A stretch of DNA of 64,000 nucleotides from a phage: the sequence record PZ386967.1, one strand, 5' to 3'. A model generated the notes under the pieces. The model searched no databases and had not been told where the DNA came from. It was given only the letters and a program-made list of their open reading frames with translations. The position numbers were made by a program, and so were the translations under genes. Shown in pieces: positions 36,802 through 55,404 of the stretch (its first letter is position 1; each line of letters begins with the position of its first letter).

Positions 36802-36886
36802 TGGTGTGAGTGGATGGATTCGAACCACCGCGCTGTTACGGGGAGATTTACAGTCTCCTGCATTCGACCGCTCTGCCACACTCACA
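36802..36886 (-). tRNA. tRNA-Tyr (anticodon GUA)
   Basis: Acceptor GTGAGTG/CACTCAC, anticodon stem GGAGA/TCTCC with loop CTGTAAA, long variable arm, T-loop TTCGAAT, encoded CCA. Confidence 0.75.
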
Positions 36887-37142
36887 TTTGGTCTGCCGCT
36901 GCGTGCTGGGCCACGCTCGAGGACATCGGCCATCCTTCCTCAGCTAATCCACGCAGCGGTAGATTTGTATCAGAGTGTCCGGTGTAGCAACCCGTGAGGT
37001 GCGCACTACTGTAGCCTCTACACTCTGAATTTGGTGGGCGTTACTATCGTCGTCTTCGGATTCCGTTCGGCTATTGGACAGAGGCTTGGAGCTTGTCGGT
37101 CGCGTACTTTATGCCTATTCACTTTCGTTCACACCCATTGTC

Positions 37143-37218
37143 TGGCGACGATGGCAGGACTTGAACCTGCGACATACGGTTTAACAGACCGCCGTTCTAC
37201 CGACTGAACTACATCGTC
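37143..37218 (-). tRNA. tRNA-Asn (anticodon GUU)
   Basis: Acceptor GACGATG/CATCGTC, anticodon loop CTGTTAA, T-arm CAGG-TTCAAGT-CCTG, encoded CCA. Confidence 0.8.
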
Positions 37219-37389
37219 TTGCAAATCACTATACCATATAAAGTTTATTGAACAAACATTTATTTTACAACAAACTGTATTGGCGGGGTCTGAGGCTTTT
37301 CACCTCACCTGCTGGGTTTGGCCGCCCAGCCGTTCTCTATGAGGATTCACTGTCCGGACAGCTATCCATTAAACTATCGCCCCTCAATA

Positions 37390-37466
37390 TGGTGATCCTG
37401 ATTGGGTTTGAACCAATGACCAATGAATTATGAGTTCACTGCTCTAACCGACTGAGCTACAGGACC
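37390..37466 (-). tRNA. tRNA-Met (anticodon CAU; initiator, elongator or Ile2 not resolved)
   Basis: Acceptor GGTCCTG/CAGGATC, D-arm TAGCTCAGTCGGTTAGAGCA, anticodon loop CTCATAA, T-loop GGTTCAAACCC, encoded CCA. Confidence 0.8.
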
Positions 37467-40427: not shown

Positions 40428-42206
40428 ATGGCCACGCAAACAGTCCCTTCACTCGATGTCAGGGCTTTCGAGTATCTTATCAAGAAGCGCATGAAAGCTG
40501 ATCCAACTTTCAAGGATTATGACTTTGAAGGTTCTGGTCTCAGTGCAATCGTGCGTATCTTGGCCTCGGATGCCAACTCTATCGGGTTCATGCAGAACAT
40601 GCTGAATGGCGAAAGCCATCTTCACTCTGCTCAACAGCGTTCTAATGTCGGTCTTGCGGCCGGGTTCTTGTCGTACACCCCTCACAACTACCAGGCGGCG
40701 TACCTGTACGCAAACGTCACAGTCACTCCATATGACGCCAGCACGGCTCCGGACACGATTATAATGGATCGCCGCGCGATGTTCATTGGGGCGAAGGATG
40801 GCAAATCCTACAACTTCACGGTTGACCAACCTGTGAGTGCCTCTCTTGTAGACGGCTCTTACAAGTTCGAGAACATCAAACTCGTACAGGGCAACTGGCT
40901 ATACAAGTCCTATGACGTGGAAGGCAGCGCGATCTCTACCTATGTGATCCCATCTTCTTCCGTGGACATCGACCATATGGTGGTGCAGGTGCAGGAATCT
41001 GAGACATCTGACGTGCGGTCTACCTTCTCACGATATGTCAGCCCGTTCGATTTGAGCCAGTATGCGCAACTCTACTTCGTTGAGCTGGGGTTGGACGGGA
41101 TGTATACGTTCGAATTCGGTGATGGGTATATCTGTAAGCGAGTAGAAGACGGGAACGTCGTGTACCTCCAGTATCTGGAGACAGCTGGTGCGGACGGCAA
41201 TGACATCACTGCCTTGTCCTCCGCGTCTTCCATCGGGGGATTCAACCTTGTAGATGTTGAGCTGGTGTCAGAACGTTCTTCCGGTGGTGCGGACCCGGAG
41301 AGCATTGAGGACATCAAGCGCCTTGCTCCGCTGGCTTATCAGGCTGAGGGTGCGGCGGTAGCTGAAGTCGATTATGCTGTGTTGACCGAGCGTCTGTTCT
41401 CCAACGTCTCCCGCGCCAAAGCATATGGCGGAGACACGCTCTCTCCGCCCGACTCCGGATACGTTTACATTGCTGTGGTGCCTTCTGTTGGTGAGACGCT
41501 CTCGGACGCCGAGAAGGCAGATATCGTGGCGAAGTTGGACAAGTACAATGTGGGCACGATCACACCCAAGATTGTCGACGCTGAACTGACTTATGTTGAT
41601 GTCACCACCCGCGTGTTCTGGGATCCGACTTCCACGACTTACACCGAAGAGCAGTTGAAGACAGTCGTGAAGAACGGTGTTGTCAACTGGGGCTTGGGGA
41701 ACCTAGAAGGATTCGACGAACTGTTCGATAAAGAGCAGTTGCAGTCGGCCATCACCGACATGGACAGATCGATAGTGTCAAACATCACTTCTGTGAAGTA
41801 TAAGCGCCATTTCAAGCCAGACTATGGGGTACTGGACAGCTTCACATTCGATTATGGGCGCTCGATTGCGTCTGGTTCTGTGCGTATCAGTGGGTTTAAG
41901 CCGCTTCCGGCCGAGGTCGAATTCACTTACTACATACGCGACGTCAGTGGTGTCCTGAATATGTACAAGGTGAGTACAACAGACACGACCAAGGAATATC
42001 TGGTACAAGCTGTTGGAATGGTTGATTATGTGACTGGCGTTGTTGAACTCCAGCGTATCATAGTATCCAACTACAACACTGAGGGTGTGACAATAATTGT
42101 GTCTCCAGACGGTCTTGACCAGAACATACAGGCCACACAGAATCAGGTGCTCCGCATCGGTGCTGTAACTGTGGAGCCGGAGGTGCGTTATGTCCAAAGA
42201 TCTTAA
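40428..42206 (+). CDS. 6: baseplate wedge protein (T4 gp6-like, Baseplate_J family)
   Basis: N-terminal DYDFEGSGLSAIVRILA matches recalled T4 gp6 (DYDFEGSRLNVLCDLLA); start moved to ATG 40428 with GGAG SD (ORF-track start is TTG). Confidence 0.7.
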   Translation: MATQTVPSLDVRAFEYLIKKRMKADPTFKDYDFEGSGLSAIVRILASDANSIGFMQNMLNGESHLHSAQQRSNVGLAAGFLSYTPHNYQAAYLYANVTVTPYDASTAPDTIIMDRRAMFIGAKDGKSYNFTVDQPVSASLVDGSYKFENIKLVQGNWLYKSYDVEGSAISTYVIPSSSVDIDHMVVQVQESETSDVRSTFSRYVSPFDLSQYAQLYFVELGLDGMYTFEFGDGYICKRVEDGNVVYLQYLETAGADGNDITALSSASSIGGFNLVDVELVSERSSGGADPESIEDIKRLAPLAYQAEGAAVAEVDYAVLTERLFSNVSRAKAYGGDTLSPPDSGYVYIAVVPSVGETLSDAEKADIVAKLDKYNVGTITPKIVDAELTYVDVTTRVFWDPTSTTYTEEQLKTVVKNGVVNWGLGNLEGFDELFDKEQLQSAITDMDRSIVSNITSVKYKRHFKPDYGVLDSFTFDYGRSIASGSVRISGFKPLPAEVEFTYYIRDVSGVLNMYKVSTTDTTKEYLVQAVGMVDYVTGVVELQRIIVSNYNTEGVTIIVSPDGLDQNIQATQNQVLRIGAVTVEPEVRYVQRS

Positions 42207-43045: not shown

Positions 43046-44236
43046 ATGGCCGATTTTCTGAGTCGATACACAGGTCAGCAGATTGATGCAATCCTTTCTT
43101 CTGTTGACGATAAAATAAGCAAGACTGATGTTGTCAACGATTTCGCTGTTGATGATCCGTTGTTCCCTCCTTCAGCTCATTTGACATACGAGCTGAAGCG
43201 TTCTGTGGATAAAATCTACGACACACTGGAAAACAAAGTGATCCGCACCGACGGTGGTGAACAAACGATCAACGGGAACAAGACCTTTGCTGCGTTATTG
43301 ACAGCCAACGGCGGCCTGACTGTTCCGGCTGGGAAGAAACTGTCTATCGCGGATGAGCCTATAGTAGCGACAGATGGTGTTAACCTGAGCATGTTGAGAA
43401 AGCATGGTGTCAGTGAAGACACTACCCCGCCTGGTTCTGGTTTGGCTGGGGAGTTGTTGACATCCGGATATTACAAATTCAATTTGGATTTCACCAGATT
43501 GTCTGCGTATACCGGATCAACGTTGCCGACTTCAATTCCAGTACAAACAGATTCTGGAGCGCGTTATTGGACAATGACTGCATTTTTTGATGCGTTGTTC
43601 GCAGACAACCGATTTAATGGATATGTGACAACGACAGCGTATGACGCAGATATGCTGAGTCTAGAGTCCCAGATTAATAACATCAACACATCGTTGAACG
43701 GGAAAGTCAACACATCGACTTACAACACTAAGATGGCGTCGTTGGATTTGAGTATCTCCAATATCAATACGTCTCTGGGTAATAAAGTCGAGGTCAGCAC
43801 GTACAACACGAAGATGACATCTCTGGATAACAGCATCAGTTCTCTTTCCAGTGATAAAGTTAATGTATCAACGTATAATGCCAAGATGACCTCTGTCGAC
43901 AATAGTTTAGGGAACGCCGTTTATCGTACCAAAACGAATTTGTCTTCTTACACGGTTTCGGCTTCTGGGACGACGGCTCTTCCAGATTTTGATTTGGTGA
44001 ACCTTTGTCAAATACTGGTGACCGCGCAATGGGGAACAGGTAACGTTGTTGATACATATCGAGTAACCATAACTCGCGACGGAACTATCAAATCGGAGTT
44101 GTTGGTTCAGAAAAGTACGAGCGGTACAGTGACGTTCACAGGGGCTGTGGTGGGTGGTAAATTGAGAATTTCCGTTGTTAATGCGAATACAACAACTGCT
44201 TGTTCGGTCGATTATTCTATTGTAGCTTCTTTCTAA
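43046..44236 (+). CDS. tail-fibre-like protein with tandem ~25-aa repeats
   Basis: Three to four tandem repeats of the form VxxSTYNTKMxSLDxSIS...; start 2 nt after the previous stop. Confidence 0.5.
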   Translation: MADFLSRYTGQQIDAILSSVDDKISKTDVVNDFAVDDPLFPPSAHLTYELKRSVDKIYDTLENKVIRTDGGEQTINGNKTFAALLTANGGLTVPAGKKLSIADEPIVATDGVNLSMLRKHGVSEDTTPPGSGLAGELLTSGYYKFNLDFTRLSAYTGSTLPTSIPVQTDSGARYWTMTAFFDALFADNRFNGYVTTTAYDADMLSLESQINNINTSLNGKVNTSTYNTKMASLDLSISNINTSLGNKVEVSTYNTKMTSLDNSISSLSSDKVNVSTYNAKMTSVDNSLGNAVYRTKTNLSSYTVSASGTTALPDFDLVNLCQILVTAQWGTGNVVDTYRVTITRDGTIKSELLVQKSTSGTVTFTGAVVGGKLRISVVNANTTTACSVDYSIVASF

Positions 44237-44243
44237 AGTGAAA

Positions 44244-44283
44244 ACTAAATACCCCTAGATGAAACGAACACATTTAGGGGTAT
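44244..44283 (+). promoter_or_regulatory. late-promoter-like motif ACTAAATAC plus 5' leader hairpin
   Basis: CTAAATA core, then inverted repeat ATACCCCTA / TAGGGGTAT whose 3' arm holds the only G-rich SD-like sequence before ATG 44289. Confidence 0.45.
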
Positions 44284-44288
44284 TTGAA

Positions 44289-47200
44289 ATGGCTAATAAA
44301 CCAACACAGCCTGTTTTCCCTCTCGGTCTGGTGGCTGAAGAGCAGTCTACTTTGGCTGGTGTCGTCAACACGGGTACGATTGAGCATGGACCAGATGCTG
44401 TCCTGACTTTACCCGAGGGTAATGCCAGCGCAGGACTCCCGTCTTCCGTTCGCTACAATGCCGACTCCGACGAATTTGAGGGCTTCTATGAAAATGGTGG
44501 ATGGTTGCCGCTGGGTGGCGGTGGTATCCGCTGGGAAGTCCTTCCGCATGCCTCTACGGTAATGCTCACTGAAGGGCGAGGCTATCTCATTAATAATACC
44601 ACAGGGGCATCTACAGTGGTTCTCCCTTCCCCTACGCGTATTGGGGATTCCGTTACTATTTGTGATGCTTATGGGAAATTTGCCACTTACCCATTGACCG
44701 TGTCTCCTTCTGGAAATAATTTGTATGGCTCCACTGAAGACATGGCTATAACAACTGATAACGTATCAGCAACGTTCACTTGGTCTGGACCTGAACAAGG
44801 TTGGATTATTACATCCGGCGTCGGTCTTGGCCAAGGCCGTGTCTACAGTCGTGAAATCTTTACAAAAATTTTGGCGTCTGAAACAAGTACTGTCACTCTC
44901 AATACTCCACCAACAATCGTGGACGTGTATGCTGACGGAAAACGCCTTGCGGAATCCAAATATTCACTAGATGGGAATGTAATCACTTTCAGTCCTTCTT
45001 TGCCAGCCAGCACAGAACTTCAGGTGATTGAATATACTCCTATTCAATTGGGTAATGGCGGTGGTTCTAGTTCTTCTACGATTACTTGGGTCTATAATGG
45101 GGGTTCAGCGATTGGCGGTGAAACCGAAATCACGTTGGACGTCGTTGTTGATGATGTTCCGGCCATTGATATAAACGGAAGTCGTCAGTATAAAAATCTG
45201 GGATTCACATTCGATCCATTAACCAGTAAAATCACTCTGGCGCAAGAACTGGAACCAGAAGATGAAGTTGTTGTAATCATCAATGGAACACCAAACATCT
45301 ATAATCAAATTGATCATACTTTGCGGGAAGTGGCTCGTGTAACCAATGTTAAAGATACAGAGGTCGTTTATTTTAGTGTTGGTGCTGTGCTAAGCGGGTA
45401 TAAAGTTATCTATGATAAAGTAACACAGAGATCATATTTTATTCCAGAGCTACCGACTGGAACCACGGCAGTCAGCCTTAGTTCTTCGGCTGTACTTGTG
45501 CATTCTGCTGGTAGTGTTGATCTGGGCGCATTAGCCGTATCTCGTGAGGAGTATGTGACCTTACCTGGTTCATTCGATACAGGTGTAACTGTTAATACCA
45601 AGAATGAGTTGGTTGTGAGTAACGATATTAAATATCGTTGGGATGGTTCTGTACCCAAAGTAGTCCCTCCAGAATCTACCCCATTGGGTACAGGAGGTGT
45701 TGGTCCAGGGGCATGGCTTGTAGTTGGTGTTGTTGGATTAGAGCAACGTTTAGCCTCCTGGAAAGGTTCTTCTCTTATTGATTCCGGTAGTCTGTCTCTT
45801 TACAAAAAGAGCGGTGTATTCGGTGATGGTGGGAATGTATCCGATAAATATCAGGTTGTTCTACATTCAGATGGGTTCTGGTACAAGTACAATGGGACAC
45901 TACCTGTTAGTTATGGTGCTGCCCCAGACTCTTCTTGGACTAACGTTGGTAAGCTAACAGGGTTTAATGAACACTCACCTGAGAATTTTGGTGCAATCCC
46001 CAATGACCCTAGTTTTGACTGTTTACCTGCTATAAAACTAGCTATAGCCACAGGTACATTAAATCTGAATGGGAATTCTACCTACCACGTAACGGATGAG
46101 GTTGTTATACCTTCTTACTTACGTGGGAATCTAAACGGGGCAACAATTAAAGCAATTGGCTCCGTATGGCCTACGTTAAAAGCTGTTGTACGCGTTAGTA
46201 AATTTCCTGTCGGTACAGCAACAGTGGATGTGGCTAATACAGAGAATCAAGTGCGAGGATTACGCTTAATCGGTAGCTTAAACGTAGACTGTGCAGATAT
46301 TGCATCATATGGTTTTTATGCACGTCTTCTGTGTGCAGAATCTGAGATGGGTAGCATCTATGCATATAATGCTAATAGATATGGCATTGTAATGTTTGCT
46401 TGCTGGTATTTTCAAATGGGCACTCTCCATGCAAACAACTGTGCAAGGGGTATGGCATTAGGTTATTCAACAGAAGGTGAGCAAGGGGATACCTATGTGA
46501 ATGCTACACACTTCCCTCACATTAGTGCATGGGGTACTGATAAGTCTACGGGACTAGGTTATGACCCAATCACGGATGATGCGAGTAAATATACAATAGG
46601 TGCTGGTATTATCTTAGGTCGTGGTTTGTCTACCAGTGTTGGTGTGATTTGCTCTGAGAATACGGCAGGTGCTGGGGTAGTAACAATGGACCCTGCTGCG
46701 TGGGACATTGGGGTCATGTACTGTGAGGGTAATAGTAAAGACTTTACTCAAGAGGGTGAACCCAAGGTGTCATTGCTGTCATCCAAGGCCAACAGTGAAA
46801 GTCATACGCTTACCATCTCCACACTCCACCTTTCCGCAGGTTGTGGCATTTTAACCAGAAGCAATCAAGAGCGTGTGCTAATCAGAAGTCTATATCGCTT
46901 TGATAACGCAAAAACCTTCCACTCTTACTGCACAGCAGACACAGTAGAGGTTGGTAGCAGCAACTACTATGTACTTAACGGGCATAATTACAATGCACCT
47001 GCTGCACTTATTAAGGAACCGCTCAATGTAGACTTTGTGCGTTCAGGGTTGACTTTAAGTGAGTGGACATCTACAGTTATCGGTCATTTTGCTGGTAGTA
47101 CAGCAGAACAACAGCTTTATGTTAAGCTCCCAGCAAGTCCCAGCGGCCTAGATTTACAGATAGATAGTGAGGATGGGACGGAATATATCACTGTAACTGG

Positions 47201-47342
47201 TACAGATTTTAAAGTCTCTCTAACTAAGAAAAGATTGCCTAGTAAACTGTATGAGATAAGGATTGGTGGGGTGTCTACAGTAGCTGTTACCGATTGTTCT
47301 ATTCTAGTCAGAAGTAAAAAAGGTGATTGGTATTACTGGTAG
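44289..47342 (+). CDS. tailspike protein with N-terminal adaptor region and internal conserved anchor module (TSP4-like)
   Basis: 1017 aa from ATG 44289; internal about 150-aa module (VVYFSVGAVLSGYKVIYDK...HSAGSVDLGALAVSREEYVTLPGSFDTGVTVNTKNELVV...) shared with three downstream genes; Asn/Gly-rich C-terminal half consistent with a beta-helix. Confidence 0.65.
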   Translation: MANKPTQPVFPLGLVAEEQSTLAGVVNTGTIEHGPDAVLTLPEGNASAGLPSSVRYNADSDEFEGFYENGGWLPLGGGGIRWEVLPHASTVMLTEGRGYLINNTTGASTVVLPSPTRIGDSVTICDAYGKFATYPLTVSPSGNNLYGSTEDMAITTDNVSATFTWSGPEQGWIITSGVGLGQGRVYSREIFTKILASETSTVTLNTPPTIVDVYADGKRLAESKYSLDGNVITFSPSLPASTELQVIEYTPIQLGNGGGSSSSTITWVYNGGSAIGGETEITLDVVVDDVPAIDINGSRQYKNLGFTFDPLTSKITLAQELEPEDEVVVIINGTPNIYNQIDHTLREVARVTNVKDTEVVYFSVGAVLSGYKVIYDKVTQRSYFIPELPTGTTAVSLSSSAVLVHSAGSVDLGALAVSREEYVTLPGSFDTGVTVNTKNELVVSNDIKYRWDGSVPKVVPPESTPLGTGGVGPGAWLVVGVVGLEQRLASWKGSSLIDSGSLSLYKKSGVFGDGGNVSDKYQVVLHSDGFWYKYNGTLPVSYGAAPDSSWTNVGKLTGFNEHSPENFGAIPNDPSFDCLPAIKLAIATGTLNLNGNSTYHVTDEVVIPSYLRGNLNGATIKAIGSVWPTLKAVVRVSKFPVGTATVDVANTENQVRGLRLIGSLNVDCADIASYGFYARLLCAESEMGSIYAYNANRYGIVMFACWYFQMGTLHANNCARGMALGYSTEGEQGDTYVNATHFPHISAWGTDKSTGLGYDPITDDASKYTIGAGIILGRGLSTSVGVICSENTAGAGVVTMDPAAWDIGVMYCEGNSKDFTQEGEPKVSLLSSKANSESHTLTISTLHLSAGCGILTRSNQERVLIRSLYRFDNAKTFHSYCTADTVEVGSSNYYVLNGHNYNAPAALIKEPLNVDFVRSGLTLSEWTSTVIGHFAGSTAEQQLYVKLPASPSGLDLQIDSEDGTEYITVTGTDFKVSLTKKRLPSKLYEIRIGGVSTVAVTDCSILVRSKKGDWYYW

Positions 47343-47350
47343 TATAATAA

Positions 47351-47380
47351 AAAGCCCCCAATTTTGGGGGCTTTTATTAT
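47351..47380 (+). terminator. rho-independent terminator
   Basis: Hairpin AAAGCCCCC-AATTTT-GGGGGCTTT followed by a T-run. Confidence 0.6.
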
Positions 47381-47414
47381 ATAGAGTTTACTGTTTTCAT
47401 TACCCTGATTGATA
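47374..47414 (+). repeat. about 40-nt intergenic repeat, copy 1
   Basis: TATATAGAGTTTACTGTTTTCATTACCCTGATTGATA; near-identical copy at 55206..55246. Confidence 0.6.
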
Positions 47415-47597
47415 ATGCTGTTGGCTCTCTCGGGTTGTCATCAAACGGGTATAAGAACTTTATAGGTGATATCAATGATGGGTCAGCGTATTTTTATTTC
47501 ACCAACATAGATGGATCAAGAATATCGGGGTCGTCTGTTTATGATGGGTGGGGTGATGTTGGTATACATTTTGAAATGTGTCTGGAATAGGAGTGTC

Positions 47598-47696
47598 AAA
47601 CCCCGCTTTGGCGGGGTTCTTATTATACCTTTGTTCATAAATTTGATTAGTTCAGACTAAATACTCCATATTGGTCATCCTTTATGGGGTATTATC
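47598..47696 (+). repeat. duplicated tailspike upstream cassette, copy 1 (hairpin, late-promoter-like motif, leader hairpin)
   Basis: About 85% identical by eye to 50575..50675; includes GACTAAATAC at 47655-47664 and leader hairpin ATACTCCATA / TATGGGGTAT at 47661-47692. Confidence 0.6.
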
Positions 47697-50126
47697 ATGA
47701 TTTCTCAATTCAATCAACCACGCGGCTCCACTTCCATAGAAGTTAACAAACAATCTATCGCTCGAAATTTCGGTGTCAAAGAAGACGAAGTCGTTTATTT
47801 CACTGCTGGTATTGATCTCAGTGGATTTAAAGTAATTTATAATGAGTCTACCCAACGGGCTTATTCTCTTCCTTCAGGTATTGTTTCAGGAACGACTGCG
47901 ATAAGTCTGGATAAAAGAGCTATCCTCACTCATTCAGCGGGTTCTGTTGATCTTGGGGAATTAGCAGTAAGCCGCGAAGAATACGTAACCTTACCTGGTT
48001 CATTTGATACTGGTGTAACTGTTAATACTAAGAATGAATTAGTTGTCTTTACCGATGGTAAGTATCGCTGGGATGGGGCACTGCCTAAAGAAGTGCCTGC
48101 TGGTTCAACCCCTACATCAACCGGTGGTGTTGGAACAGGTGCATGGGTTAGTGTTGGTGATGCGAGTTTGAGGTCAATAGCTCAATACAGAGCCAATACC
48201 ATTGAAGATTTAAAATCATTGCCATTTGCGGTTGGAGATATTGTTAATGTCGCTGGGTATTATGATGTTTTTGATGGGGCACAGCATTACCGAGTGATTA
48301 GTGGTACAGATGATGGAACAGGGGTTCAGCTCAATAATGGTTTGTGGGCAAATATTATCATTAATGGCGATGCTTGTGTAGATTGGTTTGGCGCTAAAGG
48401 TGATGGTGTTGCAGATGACTGGTGGGCAATCAATAAAGCTATTAACGCCTCGCTCTCTACCGATTATCAGGGTGGTTGGTGGGAGACGTCAAGTAGAAAC
48501 CCTAAATTTAAAGTTAGACTTAGTAGACGCTCTTACAGAATCACTAAACAGATTTTACTACCCCCTTACATAGAGTTTTATGGTATGGGTTCGCGCTGGT
48601 ATTTTTCGGGTGATAATAATTCTCGCTTAATCCCTGATTTTGATAATCCGTTGCAATTCGCTGTGAAATCTGCTAGCTATATTGTTGAAACCGGTGAACT
48701 AGCACCTGAGGGGTGGTATTCTGGGGTGGTTTGGGTTGACCCAAAAAAACTAACGACTTGTCATGGTATTAAAACTTATGGATATAGCATCGAACCAACA
48801 AAACAAATTTTAGGCGGTATAAGACTGATAGCGAGTCCAATTTCTCATGTATACGATATATTCATAACAAATGTTGATTTTGGAGTTTTACTGAATTGTT
48901 CATGGGTGAGTAAGGTTGACGTTAAAACTCATCATAATAAATGCGGGGTTATGTCTAGTCATGATGGTAATAACACTCACGTGGATGGTTATTTTACAGG
49001 GACAGAAATCAAACCGCTTGATGGTAATCCTTACCTCAACCCAATAGAGTCTTTAGACTCTACAACAGGGCTCCAAGACCAATCTATATCTGACCCAGAC
49101 AGTAAAATAGGTGTGATTTTTTATTGGTCACAGGGGTCAACAAGTACGAATATGACGTGTGAGGGTAACACTATTTCGTTGGCTGTGGCTAAGGGTGGTG
49201 CTGATGTAAGGTGTTTATACTCAGAACGTAATTCAGATTGTACATTTACTGGGTACAGTTCACTAGTTACAATTGGTGAAATAACTGGCATTGGTGACGG
49301 TGGAACTTTTGAGCTTGGTGTAAATAATACTATTTCGTTAGACAAAGACACTCAGTATGGTGTCGCTAAACGATTTAAGTACGTGAGCGAGTGGGGTAAT
49401 AAGCTGTTTATGCCCTCTAGCTGGAAAGAATACACCAAAGGTTGTTTAGTTGAAGGGTTTGATTATAGCGAAATTTTTGTAGATGCGATAAATGGAGATG
49501 ACACCAATGTTGGCTCCAGTCTTCACCCTGTGAAAACTTTGGAGAGAGCTCTAACGCTTGTGAATTCAGTGTATACTACATCTGACTTGCTAAGCTCAGT
49601 GCCGAGGGATAGAGTAATAAAGTTAGTAGGCTCAGCAACATACTACCCAGACGGACAGCATAGGTTCGTGGGCGGCTCGTTAAAAATTACAAAAGCTGAT
49701 AACTCACGACCGACTGTTAATTTATCAAAACCAATCCGATTTAACGACACATCCCTAGTATTTGAGGAAGTAAATTTAGTGCGACCAACAGATGACCACG
49801 GGAATAATGAGAATGGCGCAATTTTCCTTGAGGATGGGTGTAATGAAGTCAGATTGAAAAACTGCGATCTAAGTCTACAAAAATTCAGCTTCTTATATCC
49901 TACTTGGGGCTTTGCTGGAATATGTACCTTGGTGTTAAACGGGGTTAGTGTTACTGGTGATTCAACAACAAGAATGATACAAACAGCTGATGGATATCAT
50001 GATTTGCACTTGTTTAATGTAATTAGCTACGAGACAACTTACACTGGAGGAATAGAGTCAAGACCAGATAAAGGCTATGATATACCAGCAGATAGACGTG
50101 GTCATATATTGGGTGTATCAATATAA
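47697..50126 (+). CDS. tailspike protein with N-terminal anchor module (TSP1-like)
   Basis: 809 aa; the conserved module sits at the N-terminus; a 50-nt stretch (48114-48163) is identical to 51597-51646; Asn/Gly-rich C-terminal region. Confidence 0.65.
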   Translation: MISQFNQPRGSTSIEVNKQSIARNFGVKEDEVVYFTAGIDLSGFKVIYNESTQRAYSLPSGIVSGTTAISLDKRAILTHSAGSVDLGELAVSREEYVTLPGSFDTGVTVNTKNELVVFTDGKYRWDGALPKEVPAGSTPTSTGGVGTGAWVSVGDASLRSIAQYRANTIEDLKSLPFAVGDIVNVAGYYDVFDGAQHYRVISGTDDGTGVQLNNGLWANIIINGDACVDWFGAKGDGVADDWWAINKAINASLSTDYQGGWWETSSRNPKFKVRLSRRSYRITKQILLPPYIEFYGMGSRWYFSGDNNSRLIPDFDNPLQFAVKSASYIVETGELAPEGWYSGVVWVDPKKLTTCHGIKTYGYSIEPTKQILGGIRLIASPISHVYDIFITNVDFGVLLNCSWVSKVDVKTHHNKCGVMSSHDGNNTHVDGYFTGTEIKPLDGNPYLNPIESLDSTTGLQDQSISDPDSKIGVIFYWSQGSTSTNMTCEGNTISLAVAKGGADVRCLYSERNSDCTFTGYSSLVTIGEITGIGDGGTFELGVNNTISLDKDTQYGVAKRFKYVSEWGNKLFMPSSWKEYTKGCLVEGFDYSEIFVDAINGDDTNVGSSLHPVKTLERALTLVNSVYTTSDLLSSVPRDRVIKLVGSATYYPDGQHRFVGGSLKITKADNSRPTVNLSKPIRFNDTSLVFEEVNLVRPTDDHGNNENGAIFLEDGCNEVRLKNCDLSLQKFSFLYPTWGFAGICTLVLNGVSVTGDSTTRMIQTADGYHDLHLFNVISYETTYTGGIESRPDKGYDIPADRRGHILGVSI

Positions 50127-50574
50127 ATAATTGATATTATGCTTCATGGTGATTGTGGGTGATTCACCCACGATTACTTTTAGGTACTACAGTTGATAAT
50201 TCAGATTGATACATTGGATTGGCAGGTGCGTGTAATACTGCACTTGAATTTTGATACATAAATCCGGCACCCTCCCTCACCCTCAACGCGCCCAATTGCC
50301 CCCATAGGAGGCTCATTACCTCCTTGTGGGCTTTGTTGTTTTTGTGGCTGCTGTTGCTGACTACATTCTATGTATGGATGTATCTCATCATACTAAGCAT
50401 TATCTAAGAGCCATCCTATGATACGACCCCATTGGGATTCCTAACTTCACAACTACGGTAATATTATGAATTAATCAGGTGAACTGCTCCTAGTCAGACT
50501 GGAGGAACGATTGAAGACTCTGTTTGATAATCAGGCAAGGGATAGATAGGATCGTGGTTTTGGAGAGTAAAATC

Positions 50575-50675
50575 AAAACCCCTCTTCGGCGGGTTCTTGT
50601 TATACCTTTGTTCATAAATTTATTAGTTCAGACTAAATACCCCATATTGGCAAATCCTCTATGGGGTATCTTCAA
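50575..50675 (+). repeat. duplicated tailspike upstream cassette, copy 2
   Basis: Contains GACTAAATAC at 50631-50640 and perfect 10-bp leader hairpin ATACCCCATA / TATGGGGTAT at 50637-50669; the ORF-track ATG at 50661 lies inside the hairpin arm. Confidence 0.6.
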
Positions 50676-53180
50676 ATGACCAGAAACGTCGAGAGCATCT
50701 TTGGAGCGGTCGTAACAGCTCCGCACCAGATTCCATACACTTACACAGCAACGGGTGGAGAGAAGTTTATCTCCCTCCCTTTCTACCCTGTCACTGGTAT
50801 AGTCACAATCAACGGTGGCATGCAAGTTCCGTTAGACAACTTTGAAATCGATGGAAATACGTTGAATCTCGGACGCGCATTATCCAAAGGTGACGTTGTG
50901 TTCTGTCTGTTTGATAAGATTCTGTCTCCAGAAGATTATAAAACCGGGGTTCGAATCTATAAGTTTCAGGCTATAGGAGGTGAAACCGAGTTCACTCCTG
51001 ATTACACATATTATGGAGTCCAATCTCTTTATATCGGTGGTGAGTACAAAACACCCGAAATTGAATATTCCTATGACAGCACGACAGGGAAAGTGTCTTT
51101 ACAAACTGCGCTGACTGCAGGCGTTTGGGTAGTCGCTGAAATGTCTGTTAAACAACCGAATATCAGTCCGTTGTTTGACCGAAGTATTCAAGAAATCGCT
51201 CGTGCAACTAACGTTAAGGACAGTGAAGTAATTCTTAGCACTGACACTACGCAATTATTGAATGGTAAAAAGATTGTCTACTCTGTTAGTGAGCAGAAGT
51301 CATATGGGTTACCTTCATTACCCTCTAACATATACATCTCATCCGTTAGTAATGGGCAGTTAACGTACAATCCAGGTAATATTACTGTTACTTTGTTACC
51401 TACTCATCAAGAGTCGAATACCAGAGAATTGTGGAGACGTTTACTTGCAGAAGCAGGTTTATCTCTCGTTGCTGGTAGCTTTGAAGAAGGTGCAACAGTT
51501 AATAGTGAAACGGATGCTGTTTGGCACATCGCTGGTGGTCAGTGCTATACGTGGGAGGGTGCACTACCTAAAGTTGTCCCCGCTGACTCAACCACTACAT
51601 CAACCGGTGGTGTTGGAACAGGTGCATGGGTTAGTGTTGGTGATGCTTCATTGAAGTCAGAATTGGCTAAACCTACAGGAGCAGGTTTTTCAGGTTTTGA
51701 TAAGTCAATTGATTACGAAACTGGTACTGTTGGCAATGCGCTTAAGAAAATTATAAATGTCAACCCGGATATGTATCCATCATTACAGGATGCGATTGAT
51801 GCTGCGGCAGCTTTAACAGGTTTAGAACATGCACCAAGTAGTGCTGCTAACCATCCTGACTGGCTACAACCTAACACTGTAAGCAAAGTTATCAGGCTGA
51901 ATGGGAAGAAATATCCTATCAGTACGACACTACACATTCACGGAGATGTTAGCATTGATGCTGGTTTCGGTGGGGTATACCTGACAGATGACTTCATAGC
52001 AGACTCATCTGGTTATGCTGTAAAGTGTGATAAAGGTACAGGTAATCAATACGCTGGGCACATTAGCAATCTTTTAATTGATGCCCGTGCAAAAACTGTT
52101 AATGGATTTAAAATATCTGATGGTTATGCCAACAAGTTAGATGGCATTTACGTAGCCAATATTGATGGTCATGGCATCCATATTGCTGGCGGTATGGGTG
52201 TGCACCTATTGAAGTTTTATGCTGTTGGTGTATTAAAACCAACTAATCCACTCAGCACAGCCCACATTGTTGAAGGTAGCGATCATCAGGTTAGTATGGG
52301 TGAAGGTCGTTATTTCCGATTTGGTACCTGGGTTCGTGGTGGTGGCAATAACAGAATTAGTAAGGTGCACAACTGGGGCATGTATGACGATACAGTCACT
52401 GACCAGAACTCAAGGATGAAATGCTGCTTTGTTGTACAGAACTCAATAAACAATTCCTTCAATCAATGTTTTGCAGATTCTCCATCAAAATGGGACTACG
52501 CGAAAGCTAATTTAGATCCTGTAGATGGTTATATTAACGGCGGGATTGGCTTTTTTATTGATGGTGGAGCCACCGGTAATACGTTCTCTCAATGCCAGAC
52601 GTTTGTGAATATGAATGCGTTTAATGACGCAGGGCTATCTTCATATACGGCATCACTAATGCCATTCGCCGTTGGTAGTATCAACTGTTCATTCATTGAG
52701 TGTGAAAACTCAAACTCACCAGCATGGGTGGCAAGGCTGATAACTCATATTTACTCTGCGGACCAGACATTTACTAACATACTTGCAGCTAAGAATTTTG
52801 TTGGTATAGAGTATGATATGGTTTGCAATAGTACAATTTTCAGGAAAAATGTTGGAGTTCCTGTATTGGTAAGAAATCCAAAGTTCGAGACGCCAACAGC
52901 AAGTTATGCGCCTGACTTTTCAGACGCATCTTACATCGCAGCTACAGTTACAGGAGATGTAACAATAACTCCAGCAGTATTAACAAATACACTAATTGGT
53001 TATGTTGAGGTTCTTTTGGCTGTCTATTCAACAACATCTAAAACAATAACATTTGGTGCAAATGTTAAATTAGCAAGCAATACCCCATCTTTGACAGCAG
53101 CTGGAACACAAGTTTTTAGGTTGTCAACAACTGATGAAGGAGCAACCTGGTTTTGTAAGTTCGAGAGTGCTTACTCGTAA
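50676..53180 (+). CDS. tailspike protein with N-terminal adaptor region and internal anchor module (TSP2-like)
   Basis: Start moved to ATG 50676; conserved module at about residues 170-330, including TSTGGVGTGAWVSVGDASL identical to the 47697 gene. Confidence 0.6.
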   Translation: MTRNVESIFGAVVTAPHQIPYTYTATGGEKFISLPFYPVTGIVTINGGMQVPLDNFEIDGNTLNLGRALSKGDVVFCLFDKILSPEDYKTGVRIYKFQAIGGETEFTPDYTYYGVQSLYIGGEYKTPEIEYSYDSTTGKVSLQTALTAGVWVVAEMSVKQPNISPLFDRSIQEIARATNVKDSEVILSTDTTQLLNGKKIVYSVSEQKSYGLPSLPSNIYISSVSNGQLTYNPGNITVTLLPTHQESNTRELWRRLLAEAGLSLVAGSFEEGATVNSETDAVWHIAGGQCYTWEGALPKVVPADSTTTSTGGVGTGAWVSVGDASLKSELAKPTGAGFSGFDKSIDYETGTVGNALKKIINVNPDMYPSLQDAIDAAAALTGLEHAPSSAANHPDWLQPNTVSKVIRLNGKKYPISTTLHIHGDVSIDAGFGGVYLTDDFIADSSGYAVKCDKGTGNQYAGHISNLLIDARAKTVNGFKISDGYANKLDGIYVANIDGHGIHIAGGMGVHLLKFYAVGVLKPTNPLSTAHIVEGSDHQVSMGEGRYFRFGTWVRGGGNNRISKVHNWGMYDDTVTDQNSRMKCCFVVQNSINNSFNQCFADSPSKWDYAKANLDPVDGYINGGIGFFIDGGATGNTFSQCQTFVNMNAFNDAGLSSYTASLMPFAVGSINCSFIECENSNSPAWVARLITHIYSADQTFTNILAAKNFVGIEYDMVCNSTIFRKNVGVPVLVRNPKFETPTASYAPDFSDASYIAATVTGDVTITPAVLTNTLIGYVEVLLAVYSTTSKTITFGANVKLASNTPSLTAAGTQVFRLSTTDEGATWFCKFESAYS

Positions 53181-53184: not shown

Positions 53185-53210
53185 AACCCCGCTTCGGCGG
53201 GGTTTCTTAG
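53185..53210 (+). terminator. terminator-like hairpin
   Basis: Hairpin AACCCCGC-TTCG-GCGGGGTT followed by TTCTTAG. Confidence 0.45.
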
Positions 53211-53228: not shown

Positions 53229-55145
53229 ATGAACGAAATGTTCTCACAAGGTGGTAAAGGCTCTACTGGTATTCTTACCAATAAGCAAGCCATTGCCCGT
53301 AAGTTTGGTGTTAAACAGAATGAGGTAGTCTACTTTGCTGTAGGTGTAGACTTAGGTGGTTACAAAGTAATTTATGATAAGGCTACTCAGCGTGCCTATT
53401 CCTTGCCTGCTGACATTGGTTCAGGGGTGACTGCTGTAAGTCTTGGTACTAATGCCGTACTTGTACATTCAGCTGGTTCCGTAGATCTTGGGGAATTAGC
53501 CGTATCTCGTGAAGAATACGTTACATTGTCTGGGTCGTTTGACAATGGTGCTACACTTAATGTTAAAAATGAATTGCTTACCCATACAACAGGTAAGTAT
53601 CGCTGGGATGGTGAGTTACCTAAAACCGTTTCTTCTGGCTCAACTCCTGAAAGTGCTGGAGGTACTGGGTTAGACAAGTGGGTTAGTGTTGGTGATGCAG
53701 CCTTGAGAATCAATCTTGCATCTGATGATGGCGCTGGTCTGGTCGGATTTAAGTCACCTCTGGCCAACTCCATTAAGCGAACACTACATGATAAAAATAA
53801 AGACCTGGTGTCAGTCAAGGACTTCGGGGCTGTTGGCGACGGTGTGACCGATGATACCGCCGCGTTTCAGGCAGCAATAGATTCGAAAAAGAGTTTATAC
53901 ATACCGGATGGTATTTATCTTATAAGCTCTACTTTAATCATAACTGCCACTGATAGTCTATGTATTGTTGGTAATAGTTTTGGACATGTTAATGACCAAA
54001 CAACAGGTTCAGTAATTAAGTTTACCGGGTTAGCGTCACCCGCCATTCGGGTTCAAGGTGGTGCGATAGGAGCTAAGATTTCTGGACTTTTCTTGGATAT
54101 TCAGGACTCATCGTCTGATGGTTTTGATTTCGGAGGGGCTTGGTACCTAAAACTTCAAGATTGCGTTGTCAGAAACGCCCGGTACGGTGTTTATTTACAT
54201 TACGACGCCCCAGACTATTTTTCCGGGGTGGCTGAGCTAACTTCATGCTATTTCGCTAAATGTGCAAATGGTGTAAAAACGTCAAAAGTAGATATCAACG
54301 TAGTTAAAGTTGATAATTGTACTTTCTTTGATGGTGTTAACGGTGTTCTTATCGGAGACTCAGGTACTGCAAGTAGTGTACGAAATTTCATAGTCAGAGA
54401 CTCTCTATTTGAAGCAAACACGGGCTATGACGTAGGTGTTGTCGCCGGGGGTGCACAGCAGTTACTGGTAGATGGTAACTACTTTGAAGAGAATACTGCT
54501 TCTTCTTTAGCCAGGGTATATGTTGCAGATGATAGTCACTCACCGCGTTCTTCTTCTGTTTCAATAACCAACAACACGTTTAGCAAAGATACGACAGGCG
54601 ATCTTATTTTCCTGTCCGGTATTTCCGGTGTTCTTGTTAAACAAAACTGGTCAGCATTTGGGGGTATAGGTTTTGTAAGGGCTATTAATATCGACAATTA
54701 TGAGATAGATAGATGCTCTACCGTATCTGGAGCAACAGCCTGTAATGTTGTTATAGATAACGTCTTACAAGTACCTGACACTTCTGTTAATAAGATTTAT
54801 ATTAACAAGGCCCAAGAATACGCATTTATTGGGTCTACCGTCGCAAAAAGGTCGAGTGCATGTACACGGGCAATGATCAATTTTAATGGAATTTCGGGGT
54901 CGTCAGTGTATGCGGATGGAGCAACTGTAACTAAAACCGGGACCGGTAAATATACCGTCAACCTATCTAATACTATGCCCTCCTCTGCTTATGCTGTTTT
55001 ATGCAGTGTTGGCAATACCACTAGCGGAGGGAAATTAGTAATTAATGTCGTAAGTACATCCCCTGACTCTTTTAACTTAGAAGTTTTTGACCTTTCTGGA
55101 TCGTATCAAGATTCAGGATACATATCTGCCGCAGTTGTTATGTAA
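53229..55145 (+). CDS. tailspike protein with N-terminal anchor module and beta-helix-like C-terminus (TSP3-like)
   Basis: 638 aa; N-terminal module about 65% identical to that of the 47697 gene; C-terminal repeats typical of right-handed beta-helix (pectate-lyase-like) folds. Confidence 0.65.
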   Translation: MNEMFSQGGKGSTGILTNKQAIARKFGVKQNEVVYFAVGVDLGGYKVIYDKATQRAYSLPADIGSGVTAVSLGTNAVLVHSAGSVDLGELAVSREEYVTLSGSFDNGATLNVKNELLTHTTGKYRWDGELPKTVSSGSTPESAGGTGLDKWVSVGDAALRINLASDDGAGLVGFKSPLANSIKRTLHDKNKDLVSVKDFGAVGDGVTDDTAAFQAAIDSKKSLYIPDGIYLISSTLIITATDSLCIVGNSFGHVNDQTTGSVIKFTGLASPAIRVQGGAIGAKISGLFLDIQDSSSDGFDFGGAWYLKLQDCVVRNARYGVYLHYDAPDYFSGVAELTSCYFAKCANGVKTSKVDINVVKVDNCTFFDGVNGVLIGDSGTASSVRNFIVRDSLFEANTGYDVGVVAGGAQQLLVDGNYFEENTASSLARVYVADDSHSPRSSSVSITNNTFSKDTTGDLIFLSGISGVLVKQNWSAFGGIGFVRAINIDNYEIDRCSTVSGATACNVVIDNVLQVPDTSVNKIYINKAQEYAFIGSTVAKRSSACTRAMINFNGISGSSVYADGATVTKTGTGKYTVNLSNTMPSSAYAVLCSVGNTTSGGKLVINVVSTSPDSFNLEVFDLSGSYQDSGYISAAVVM

Positions 55146-55205: not shown

Positions 55206-55246
55206 TTTTTATATAGAGTTTACTGTTTGCATTACCCTAATCGATA
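55206..55246 (+). repeat. about 40-nt intergenic repeat, copy 2
   Basis: TATATAGAGTTTACTGTTTGCATTACCCTAATCGATA; about 36 of 39 positions identical to 47374..47414. Confidence 0.6.
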
Positions 55247-55404
55247 CAGCAGTTAAGGTAATAGTCTGACCTGATATATTAAACATACCTAATTGAATAC
55301 CATCTACCATGAATGGCAGAGGTCTCGAATCCATGACCATAACCACAGAAAGATAATCAAAGCCCCTTCGGGCTTATTTCTTTCTATTCCTCGGTTGGTT
55401 GTAT

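What the first reader, a model, noticed from the sequence alone, without database searches (positions are those of the whole stretch)
50127..50660. A 534-nt non-coding spacer between two tailspike genes
Most genes in this block abut or overlap, but here more than 0.5 kb separates two tailspike genes. The spacer holds no ORF longer than about 15 codons with an SD, but has a perfect hairpin GTGGGTG-ATT-CACCCAC (about 50152-50168), a second hairpin AGGAGG-CTCATTA-CCTCCT (about 50302-50320) followed by a T-rich run, and then the duplicated upstream cassette. It may be the scar of a deleted or exchanged tailspike module, or encode a small RNA.
Basis: seen in the sequence. Interest (0 to 1): 0.4.

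Follow-up and report, generated by a model that had tools for sequence, protein, structure and literature searches.

The report
Fossil-filled spacer between tailspike genes
The long gap between two tailspike genes of this E. coli phage is dead, non-coding DNA made of leftovers that rode in with swapped tailspike modules from at least three unrelated phage groups, ending in the phage's own terminator and promoter block for the next gene.

Summary
The spacer is real. It is 549 nt (50127-50675), because the downstream tailspike most likely starts at ATG 50676. The phage is Agtrevirus-like (Ackermannviridae). All but the first 52 nt are accounted for by homology.

- 50127-50339 continues a tailspike module shared with Phapecoctavirus ukendt.
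- 50179-50311 matches the right genome end and terminal-repeat boundary of T7-like phages, just after their last tailspike gene.
- 50302-50359 is the antisense remnant of an SSB gene's 3' end (…QQSPQGGNEPPM).
- 50360-50556 is the upstream region plus the first 30 codons of an N4 gp63-like gene, with two stop codons.
- 50557-50675 is the resident inter-tailspike cassette.

Each foreign piece lies directly 3' of a tailspike or tail-fibre gene in its home lineage. Related phages have only 88-111 nt upstream of TSP2, and two close relatives lack TSP3 altogether. The flank diverges at the synonymous-site rate. There is no Rfam hit, no intact conserved ORF, and no unusual overall fold.

Verdict: a recombination scar. 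The "exchanged module" reading is supported; the small-RNA reading is not. Junction combinations across phages imply a crossover inside the SSB fossil, so the fossils may act as 3' homology arms.

The parts
47697..50126 (+). TSP3 tailspike gene (809 aa), upstream of the spacer. Its receptor-binding part from 48069 on is shared with Phapecoctavirus ukendt.
   Evidence: PF18668 at E 1.8e-26 and PHROG tail spike families. 48069-50339 is 95.2% identical to ukendt. The RBD is 96.3% identical at protein level to ukendt only.
50127..50178 (+). Segment a: gene-proximal flank holding hairpin 1 (14-bp stem, 50148-50178). It is a candidate transcription terminator for TSP3. Its origin is unknown and only ukendt shares it.
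   Evidence: dG -20.2, z -4.95. All three stem differences from ukendt keep pairing. Only four U follow the stem, so the terminator scan does not call it.
50179..50311 (+). Segment b: fossil of the right genome end of a T7-like phage (Autographiviridae). 50275-50311 corresponds to the first 37 nt of the direct terminal repeat, including the CCCCCATAGG motif.
   Evidence: 88.8% identical to Providencia Kakivirus PS3 at 40777-40910 of 41,024 bp, E 2e-40. That site lies between the tail fibre stop (40653) and the annotated terminal repeat (from 40874). Drulisvirus matches sit at extreme record ends, after the last tailspike gene. T7's repeat carries CCCCCATAGGGGG.
50302..50359 (-). Segment c: antisense fossil of the 3' end of a phage SSB gene. 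It has 19 codons (QQQQPQKQQSPQGGNEPPM) and lacks the acidic tip and the stop.
   Evidence: 93.5-95.7% identical over 46 nt to SSB genes of Akira/Jersey-like siphophages, E 1e-12, in 131 records. Translation compared with Akira SSB, which ends ...QQSPQGGNEPPMDFDDSIPF*.
50360..50556 (+). Segment e: fossil of the region upstream of an N4 gp63-like gene (phrog_5211) plus its first 30 codons. The start ATG is at 50466, with TAA at 50472-50474 and TAG at 50547-50549. It is a dead 5' gene fragment.
   Evidence: 88.9-90.5% identical to Gamaleyavirus phages (E to 1e-67; 34 records). 94.5% identical to Phapecoctavirus vB_Ec-G1 over 50448-50556. Alignment; family assignment.
50557..50675 (+). Segment f: resident Ackermannviridae inter-tailspike cassette. 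It holds a degenerate terminator hairpin (50574-50599), the promoter-like motif ACTAAATACCCC (50632-50643) and a 5' leader hairpin (50637-50669). It ends immediately before the TSP2 start at ATG 50676.
   Evidence: Conserved in Mutine, LHE287, A221 and AV101, and the dominant match among the 517 records. The motif gives 4 hits against 0.34 expected, all just upstream of ORF starts.
47596..47696 (+). First copy of the same cassette, upstream of TSP3. With 50573-50675 it forms direct repeats that bracket TSP3 and its foreign flank.
   Evidence: Its terminator hairpin is intact (dG -15.3, z -4.05).
50676..53180 (+). TSP2 tailspike gene (834 aa from the corrected start), downstream of the spacer.
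   Evidence: PF18668 at E 1e-20. The N-terminal 268 aa are 87.7% identical to AV101 TSP2. 50368-51388 is 92.6% identical to AV101 at DNA level.

Best explanation
The spacer is a recombination scar: a stack of hitch-hiked 3' flanks followed by the phage's own regulatory cassette. Tailspike receptor-binding modules move between phages by a left crossover in the conserved N-terminal anchor region and a right crossover somewhere downstream of the gene. Each move drags along a piece of whatever lay 3' of the tailspike in the donor.

Five blocks follow one another here:
- (a) A gene-proximal hairpin region.
- (b) The right genome end and terminal-repeat boundary of a T7-like phage. In those phages the tailspike is the last gene.
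- (c) The antisense 3' end of an SSB gene. In Akira/Jersey-like siphophages SSB converges on the tailspike gene.
- (e) The upstream region and first 30 codons of an N4 gp63-like gene. In Gamaleyavirus and some Phapecoctavirus this gene follows the tailspike gene.
- (f) The resident cassette that drives TSP2.

Blocks b, c and e are dead and drift neutrally.

What is shown: the homologies, their home contexts, the broken frames, the neutral divergence, and the short gap or absent TSP3 in relatives.

What is inferred:
- Hairpin 1, and perhaps hairpin 2, stop TSP3 transcription.
- ACTAAATACCCC is a T4-type late promoter.
- The fossils, being shared among many tailspike flanks, serve as 3' homology for further exchange.
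- The two cassette copies allow TSP3 to be gained or lost.
For: 1. Mosaic map. Local blastn and database searches give non-overlapping or minimally overlapping matches that cover all but the first 52 nt of the spacer.

2. Each fossil's home context is directly 3' of a tailspike or tail-fibre gene:
- PS3 tail fibre, then 220 nt, then the terminal repeat.
- Drulisvirus tailspike (plus an HNH gene), then the match, at the record end.
- Akira tailspike stop, then 41 nt, then the convergent SSB stop. SB28 and S192 are similar.
- Bp4, PBM-3, phi G17 and SP5M tailspike, then the gp63-like gene.
- vB_Ec-G1 tail protein, then the phrog_5211 gene.

3. SSB fossils of different lengths also sit after tailspike or fibre genes in Kayfunavirus (IMEP24, PDP351P4), Gamaleyavirus (PBM-3, phi G17, SP5M) and ukendt.

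4. Frames are dead. The SSB fragment lacks its OB fold, acidic tip and stop. The gp63-like fragment has stops at codons 3 and 28.

5. Neutral drift. The window-ukendt flank shows 7 mismatches and 1 gap in 213 nt (3.3%). Fourfold sites of the adjacent, equally recent coding stretch 48601-50123 show 9 of 225 (4.0%).

6. Relatives have much shorter gaps upstream of TSP2. The Mutine TSP3-TSP2 gap is 111 nt. LHE287 (97% identical backbone) has no TSP3 and an 88-nt TSP4-TSP2 gap. A221 also lacks TSP3, and its 445-nt gap is likewise a terminal-repeat fossil plus a Gamaleyavirus fossil plus the cassette.

7. There was a crossover inside fossil c. All four combinations of left junction (b-joined or SSB tail intact) and right junction (cut after QQS or SSB continuing) exist: ukendt, window, SP5M, and IMEP24/Akira.

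8. The b/c junction lies in a 10-nt microhomology, CCATnGGnGG.

9. No Rfam family matches and the overall fold is not special.
Against: - Hairpins 1 and 2 fold much better than shuffled sequence (z -4.95 and -3.1), so a local RNA function cannot be excluded. Termination is the obvious candidate.
- Neither hairpin meets the simple terminator criterion.
- There are no expression data.
- The direction and order of the transfers cannot be fixed from present-day sequences.
- The origin of segment a is unknown.
- The neutral-rate comparison rests on few substitutions.
- The late-promoter reading of the cassette motif is inference only. The CBA120 genome paper states that the late promoter of ViI-like phages had not been identified (PMC3184105).
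Confidence: 0.85

Rival explanations
1. The spacer encodes a small regulatory RNA or a structured cis-acting RNA that uses hairpins 1 and 2.
For: Both hairpins are far more stable than shuffled controls. The three stem differences between the window and ukendt in hairpin 1 all keep pairing.
Against: No Rfam match reaches its gathering score. The whole-region fold has z -1.2. Hairpin 2 and its T-run are antisense SSB codons, and the same sequence is coding in 100+ siphophages. The outer stem of hairpin 2 pairs bases from two different fossils, so it arose by accident of the junction. The flank drifts at the synonymous rate. Three pairing-compatible transitions are expected by chance at roughly 25-50%.
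Confidence: 0.05
2. A small protein gene is hidden in the spacer. Candidates are the 50-codon minus-strand ORF 50164-50316 (ATG preceded by AAGGAGG), the gp63-like fragment, and the 51-codon TTG ORF 50524-50679.
For: These ORFs exist mechanically. The minus-strand ORF has an SD-like AAGGAGG. Relatives annotate a phrog_5211 gene at the homologous site.
Against: The ATG and AAGGAGG of the minus-strand ORF are simply the SSB codons GGNEPPM read in another frame, and only 2 nt separate the SD from the ATG. ukendt has a 1-nt indel inside that ORF. The gp63-like frame has stops at codons 3 and 28, and homology ends at codon 30. The TTG ORF runs through the terminator and promoter cassette.
Confidence: 0.03
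3. The spacer is the decayed remnant of a former tailspike gene, for example a fifth tailspike, that was deleted or pseudogenised in place.
For: Tailspike number varies in this genus: LHE287 and A221 lack TSP3. Engineered phages readily delete tsp genes (PMC11414711).
Against: All but the first 52 nt are accounted for by homology to non-tailspike sequences. Six-frame translation shows no tailspike-like stretch.
Confidence: 0.04
4. The extra DNA is kept by selection as a transcriptional insulator. Several tandem terminator-like hairpins would uncouple TSP3 from TSP2 expression and make up for the degenerate cassette terminator.
For: The terminator hairpin in this cassette copy is degenerate (dG -6.6 against -15.3 for the intact copy). 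The same defect occurs in AV101, which also carries fossil e. Hairpin 1, a scan-positive site at 50223-50246 and hairpin 2 all lie upstream.
Against: Divergence is neutral. The reverse causation is just as likely: the cassette terminator decayed because upstream hairpins made it redundant, or it was clipped at the e/f junction. Relatives manage with about 100 nt.
Confidence: 0.15

Closest known systems
Mosaic module boundaries in tailed phages: illegitimate recombination followed by selection, and conserved boundary or 'linker' sequences at gene junctions. This comes from established knowledge of lambdoid phage genomics (Susskind-Botstein and Hendrix models), not from a test here.
   Same: Sharp homology breakpoints at or near gene borders. 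Junctions at microhomology. Dead gene fragments left at the joints. Short shared sequences that can seed later homologous exchange.
   Different: Several fossils from different families are stacked in one intergenic gap. One of them is a genome terminus rather than a gene border. The shared 'linker' is itself a pseudogene fragment (the SSB 3' end) that has spread to at least five phage lineages.
Receptor-binding-module exchange among Ackermannviridae tailspikes and with G7C-like and other phages (PMC8432352, PMC10791037, PMC11414711).
   Same: The same gene cluster and the same process. The left crossover is in the conserved N-terminal/TD1 region. TSP3 is variably present. G7C-like phages are exchange partners.
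   Different: Term searches of those three papers found discussion of the 5' homology and of protein-level similarity, and no hit for 'intergenic'. The 3' flanks, their fossils and the right-hand crossover were not found there.
The canonical Ackermannviridae inter-tailspike intergenic cassette. In phage Mutine it is annotated as a terminator and a ribosome-binding site between tailspike genes.
   Same: Segment f (50557-50675) is this cassette: hairpin, ATACCTTTGTTCATAAATTT, CTAAATACCCC, leader hairpin, ATG.
   Different: The terminator hairpin of this copy is degenerate. The cassette is preceded by about 430 nt of foreign DNA that typical members lack.
The T7-type direct terminal repeat and right genome end.
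   Same: Segment b aligns across the unique-sequence/repeat boundary of Kakivirus PS3. It carries the CCCCCATAGG motif that T7 also has in its repeat.
   Different: It is internal to a 150-kb myovirus genome and includes only 37 nt of the repeat. No role in packaging is expected.
Bacterial-type phage SSB and its C-terminal tail (…NEPPMDFDDDIPF).
   Same: The antisense frame reads QQQQPQKQQSPQGGNEPPM. It is 93.5-95.7% identical at DNA level to siphophage SSB genes.
   Different: There are only 19 codons. The fragment has no OB fold, no acidic tip and no stop, and it lies on the strand opposite to the surrounding genes.

Membership tests
Rho-independent (intrinsic) terminator | A stable G+C-rich stem-loop with a loop of 3-8 nt | tested here: met
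   Hairpin 1 has 14 bp, a 3-nt loop, dG -20.2 and z -4.95. Hairpin 2 has dG -18.1 and z -3.1.
Rho-independent (intrinsic) terminator | A U-tract immediately after the stem (at least 5 T in 8 within 0-2 nt) | tested here: not met
   Hairpin 1 is followed by CTTTTAGG and hairpin 2 by CTTTGTTGTTTTTG. Neither is listed by the scan. Only 50223-50246 is listed within the spacer.
Rfam RNA families (any known small RNA or cis element) | A covariance-model score at or above the family's gathering threshold | tested here: not met
   The best hits score 14.7-18.7 bits against thresholds of 42-64, with E 0.83-9.5.
Phage SSB gene (bacterial type) | An intact ORF with an OB-fold domain and the acidic C-terminal tip DFDDxIPF | tested here: not met
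   Only 19 antisense codons up to NEPPM are present. The frame then reads GAIGRVE, which comes from the T7-like fossil.
phrog_5211 (N4 gp63-like small protein) | An intact ORF of about 109-147 aa that matches the family profile | tested here: not met
   Bp4 orf15 and vB_Ec-G1 gene 105 match phrog_5211 (E 8.8e-50 and 4.3e-30). The window keeps only codons 1-30, with TAA at codon 3 and TAG at codon 28.
T7-type direct terminal repeat | Located at both physical genome ends as an exact repeat | tested here: not met
   The homolog lies inside a tailspike cluster. Only 37 nt of the repeat start is present. Whether a second copy exists outside the window was not tested.
Ackermannviridae inter-tailspike cassette | The conserved block of hairpin, ATACCTTTGTTCATAAATTT, ACTAAATACCCC, leader hairpin and ATG, directly upstream of a tailspike gene | tested here: met
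   An 8-sequence alignment across two subfamilies has 81% mean column identity. The motif is enriched at 4 hits against 0.34 expected. The hairpin part is degenerate in this copy.
T4-type late promoter (gp55-dependent, consensus TATAAATA) | A -10-like TATAAATA element upstream of late genes, used by a gp55-type sigma factor | tested here: inconclusive
   ACTAAATA matches 6 of 8 consensus positions and lies 4-33 nt upstream of four ORF starts. ViI-like phages have gp55, gp33 and gp45 homologs, but their late promoter was reported as unidentified (PMC3184105). No transcript mapping is available.
Mosaic junction / recombination scar | Abrupt switches of nearest relative along the sequence, with each block having an independent homolog set and native context | tested here: met
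   Five blocks have distinct relatives and identities. The composite as a whole is found in no other record: 0 of 517 matching records cover at least 80% of it. The junction strings are absent from IMG/VR and, for b/c, from metagenome contigs.

The most novel reading that the evidence does not exclude
The dead fragments are not just debris. A handful of them recur downstream of tailspike and tail-fibre genes in Ackermannviridae, Gamaleyavirus, Phapecoctavirus, Kayfunavirus and Akira/Jersey-like siphophages. These are the SSB 3' fossil, the Gamaleyavirus flank pieces and the AACCCCGCTTCGGCGGGGTT terminator. Together they would form a shared set of portable 3' homology arms. Paired with the conserved Tail_spike_N coding region on the 5' side, they would let receptor-binding cassettes move between otherwise unrelated phage families by ordinary two-sided homologous recombination. 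Their order in a flank would then record the chain of former host genomes.
Probability: 0.2. Interest if true: 0.6.

Novelty: new member of a known kind. Interest (0 to 1): 0.4.

Why it matters
Tailspike swapping sets phage host range, and phage engineers copy it. Work on this family has described the 5' crossover site. The 3' side, and how modules cross family boundaries, were not addressed in the papers searched here.

This spacer gives direct sequence evidence of cross-family traffic between T7-like, N4-like, rV5-like/Phapecoctavirus, siphophage and Ackermannviridae genomes. It shows that right-hand junctions form both at microhomology and inside shared fossils. It also suggests a simple marker for tracing where a receptor-binding module has been: flank fossils such as the SSB tail.

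It is also a caution for annotation. A convincing hairpin plus T-run here is antisense coding debris, not a designed terminator or a small RNA.

Tried and rejected
- Rfam scan of 49900-50900 at permissive E-values found nothing near threshold.
- Whole-spacer folding gave z -1.2, which is not special.
- The sigma-70 promoter scan found fewer sites than in shuffles (17 against 22.9), so it is uninformative.
- I first thought the flank was more conserved than synonymous sites: 3.3% against 11.9%, Fisher p 0.0003. I rejected this after a sliding view showed the coding divergence is concentrated in 48069-48600 (28 of 85 fourfold sites). The equally recent stretch 48601-50123 has 4.0%, which matches the flank.
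- I recalled that the CBA120 paper gave a late-promoter consensus CTAAATAcCcc. The paper in fact says the late promoter of ViI-like phages was not identified, so the promoter reading stands on motif enrichment and position only.
- Exact-string scans for the SSB-fossil core and for the b/c and e/f junctions found, in IMG/VR, one Akira-sized contig for the core and nothing for either junction. The b/c junction was also absent from metagenome contigs.
- A protein search with the TSP3 receptor-binding domain found only ukendt as a close relative, and Acinetobacter Friunavirus tailspikes at about 25% identity. This is too distant to name a donor.
- A protein search with the 67-aa open frame in the TSP4-TSP3 spacer matched only AV101. 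This remains unresolved.

Full report
**Setting**

The window comes from an Agtrevirus-like E. coli phage (Ackermannviridae, Aglimvirinae). The rII region is 97% identical to phage LHE287 and about 95% identical to A221, ZQ1 and AV101.

The finding lies in the tailspike cluster:
- TSP4, 44259-47342
- TSP3, 47697-50126
- TSP2, 50676-53180
- TSP1, 53229-55145

All four carry the Pfam Tail_spike_N domain PF18668 and match PHROG tail spike families.

**Observation check**

TSP3 stops at 50126. The ORF lister opens the next gene at ATG 50661. AV101, Mutine and LHE287 start the homologous gene at the ATG equal to 50676, giving MTRNVES…. The gap is therefore 549 nt.
- Hairpin 1 has its core at 50155-50171 and extends to 14 bp at 50148-50178 (dG -20.2, z -4.95).
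- Hairpin 2 has its core at 50306-50324 and extends to 50298-50331 (dG -18.1, z -3.1).
- The repeated cassette is 50573-50675 against 47596-47696.

This is not the only long gap. TSP4-TSP3 is 354 nt and TSP1-next is 253 nt. Related phages have far less DNA upstream of TSP2. Mutine has 111 nt between TSP3 and TSP2. LHE287 has no TSP3 and 88 nt between TSP4 and TSP2.

**The spacer is a mosaic**

A search of 50,697 phage records found no record covering 80% of the spacer. It found many records covering separate parts. Local blastn against fetched loci, plus part-by-part searches, resolve five blocks.

*Block a+b+c, left part (50127-50339).* This continues a module that begins inside TSP3 at 48069 and is 95.2% identical to Phapecoctavirus ukendt. 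In ukendt it also follows a tailspike gene and lies in a 580-nt unannotated gap.

*Block b (50179-50311).*
- It is 88.8% identical (E 2e-40) to Providencia Kakivirus PS3. That site lies between the tail-fibre stop and the annotated short terminal repeat.
- The alignment crosses the repeat boundary, so 50275-50311 corresponds to the first 37 nt of the repeat.
- Weaker matches (77-81%) lie at the extreme right ends of Klebsiella Drulisvirus records: KpV17Sklif 43359-43432 of 43,443 and CX1 44904-44977 of 45,013. In these phages the tailspike, sometimes followed by an HNH gene, is the last gene.
- T7's own repeat carries CCCCCATAGGGGG at positions 27-39.

*Block c (50302-50359).*
- The 46-nt core is 93.5-95.7% identical (E 1e-12) to 131 records, mostly Salmonella and E. 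coli siphophages. There it falls inside the SSB gene.
- Read on the minus strand the window gives QQQQPQKQQSPQGGNEPPM. Akira SSB ends …QQSPQGGNEPPMDFDDSIPF*.
The T-rich run is the antisense of Gln and Lys codons.
- In Akira the SSB gene converges on the tailspike gene, with 41 nt between the two stops. SB28 and S192 have one or two small genes in between.
- SSB 3' fragments of various lengths, no longer part of a gene, also lie just downstream of tailspike or tail-fibre genes in Kayfunavirus IMEP24 and PDP351P4, in Gamaleyavirus PBM-3, phi G17 and SP5M, and in ukendt.

*Block e (50360-50556).*
- It is 88.9-90.5% identical to 30 Gamaleyavirus (G7C-like, N4-related) records.
- There it spans the region upstream of an N4 gp63-like gene and that gene's first 30 codons. 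The gene follows the tailspike genes.
- It is 94.5% identical over 50448-50556 to Phapecoctavirus vB_Ec-G1, where the homologous 147-aa gene also follows the tail protein gene.
- Both intact genes belong to phrog_5211, of unknown function.
- In the window the start ATG (50466) is kept, codon 3 is TAA (GAA in the relatives) and codon 28 is TAG. Homology stops at codon 30.

*Block f (50557-50675).*
- This is the resident cassette, conserved in both Ackermannviridae subfamilies.
- Its motif ACTAAATACYCC occurs four times in the window against 0.34 expected. Each copy is 4-33 nt upstream of an ORF start on the same strand: TSP4, TSP3, TSP2 and a minus-strand ORF starting at 34069.
- The terminator hairpin of this copy is degenerate (dG -6.6 against -15.3 for the copy at 47599-47618). 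AV101 shares the same defect, and it also shares e, f and the TSP2 N-terminus with the window at 92.6% identity.

**Interpretation**

Each of the three foreign blocks is what lies immediately 3' of a tailspike gene in some other lineage. That is what one expects if receptor-binding modules are imported with a right-hand crossover in the donor's flank. On this view the spacer is a stack of such flanks in front of the phage's own cassette. Several observations support it:
- The b/c joint sits in a 10-nt microhomology. The T7-type sequence is CCCCCATAGGGGGG and the SSB antisense is TCCATCGGAGGC.
- The frames are dead.
- Divergence from ukendt in the flank (7 mismatches and 1 gap in 213 nt, 3.3%) equals that at fourfold sites of the adjacent, equally recent coding stretch 48601-50123 (9 of 225, 4.0%).
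- No Rfam family matches, and the region as a whole folds no better than shuffles (z -1.2).
- A221, which lacks TSP3, has a 445-nt gap upstream of TSP2. It is built the same way: a terminal-repeat fossil, then a different Gamaleyavirus flank fossil, then the cassette.
- The first 80 nt after TSP4 (47343-47422), and a copy after TSP1 (55206-55254), match the 3' flank of Gamaleyavirus tailspikes.

**A crossover inside a fossil**

The SSB fossil has two kinds of left border and two kinds of right border. The left border is either joined to block b or keeps the SSB tail intact. The right border is either cut after QQS and followed by …CAATATTTTAGG…, or continues as SSB.

All four combinations exist:
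- ukendt: b-joined, cut
- window: b-joined, continuing
- SP5M: tail intact, cut
- IMEP24 and Akira: tail intact, continuing

.

Unless identical junctions arose twice, at least one homologous crossover took place within the 38-nt core. That core is also where window-ukendt homology ends (50339). This is the basis for the more novel reading that the fossils serve as shared 3' homology arms.

**Function of what remains (inferred)**
- Hairpin 1, directly after the TSP3 stop, is the best terminator candidate. Only four U follow it and the scan does not call it. Its three differences from ukendt keep pairing, which is weak evidence.
- The cassette probably supplies a T4-type late promoter. ACTAAATA matches TATAAATA at 6 of 8 positions, and ViI-like phages encode gp55, gp33 and gp45 homologs (PMC3184105). 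That paper says the late promoter had not been identified.
- The cassette also supplies a leader hairpin at 50637-50669 (dG -16.3, z -4.9).
- The two cassette copies are direct repeats that bracket TSP3 and its flank. Recombination between them would produce the three-tailspike layout of LHE287.

**Comparison with the literature**

Searches of the papers on Ackermannviridae tailspike diversity, AV101 and tailspike engineering found three themes: exchange of receptor-binding modules, a conserved recombination site in the TD1 domain, and similarity to G7C-like phages. The word "intergenic" returned no hit in any of them, and 3' flanks or their content were not found (PMC8432352, PMC10791037, PMC11414711).

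The general phenomenon of mosaic joints with dead fragments is long established for tailed phages. I therefore file this as a new member of a known kind. It has two unusual details: a genome terminus and an SSB tail among the debris, and evidence that the debris is reused as a crossover site.

**Verdict**

The "scar of an exchanged module" reading is supported, and the "small RNA" reading is not. Interest is moderate.

Noticed in passing
window 47343-47696: The TSP4-TSP3 gap (354 nt) is also a composite. It holds a strong hairpin AAAAAGCCCCCAATTTTGGGGGCTTTT (dG -21.7) and an element at 47374-47422, which match the 3' flank of Gamaleyavirus tailspikes. Next comes a 79-codon stop-free frame (about 47345-47584) found otherwise only in AV101, at 58% aa identity. 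The cassette follows. The origin of the open frame is unexplained.
   Followed up: partly
window 55206-55254: A second copy (86% identical) of the 49-nt Gamaleyavirus-type flank element lies in the 253-nt gap after TSP1. Three of the four tailspike genes therefore carry G7C-like 3' flank debris.
   Followed up: partly
window 50637-50669 and 47661-47690: The conserved leader hairpin ATACCCCATA…TATGGGGTAT overlaps both the promoter-like motif and the GGGG that annotators of phage Mutine marked as the ribosome-binding site. It may gate translation of TSP2 and TSP3. It is conserved across Cvivirinae and Aglimvirinae.
   Followed up: partly
window 47596-47696 and 50573-50675; L018 (LHE287); L007 (A221): The closest backbone relatives, LHE287 and A221, have no TSP3. 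In the window TSP3 and its flank sit between two direct copies of the cassette. This suggests gain or loss of TSP3 by recombination between the cassette copies.
   Followed up: partly
window 48069-48600 versus 48601-50339: Inside TSP3, divergence from ukendt drops from 33% to 4% at fourfold sites around position 48600. This is an internal mosaic boundary within the shared receptor-binding module.
   Followed up: partly
window 53185-53204: The terminator hairpin AACCCCGCTTCGGCGGGGTT after TSP2 is identical to the hairpin right after the Akira siphophage tailspike gene. In Gamaleyavirus phi G17 it is followed by the same AGTTTTATCAT. It may be another shared flank element. Chance identity of a common GC-rich hairpin was not excluded.
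   Followed up: no
L007 (A221) 3318-3762: The 445-nt gap upstream of A221 TSP2 contains a longer T7-type terminal-repeat fossil (…CCCCCATAGGGGGGTGGCCTAGGGAAAACATAGG) joined to a Gamaleyavirus flank segment that is about 91% identical to G7C, PhAPEC5/7 and phi G17. AV101 and PC3/PH4 carry the same Gamaleyavirus segment elsewhere in their clusters.
   Followed up: partly
L002 (AV101) about 4099-4250: In AV101 the gp63-like fragment keeps its start and, after a 1-nt deletion, reads on into the cassette as an unannotated chimeric ORF of about 49 codons. It is probably meaningless.
   Followed up: no
window 36493-37466, minus strand: There is a cluster of four tRNA genes (Ser-GCT, Tyr-GTA, Asn-GTT, Met-CAT) within a stretch of about 2.5 kb that has no ORF of 80 aa or more.
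   Followed up: no
window 50661 versus 50676: A mechanical ORF call puts the TSP2 start 15 nt too far upstream, at an ATG inside the leader hairpin. LHE287's deposited annotation makes the same choice.
   Followed up: yes
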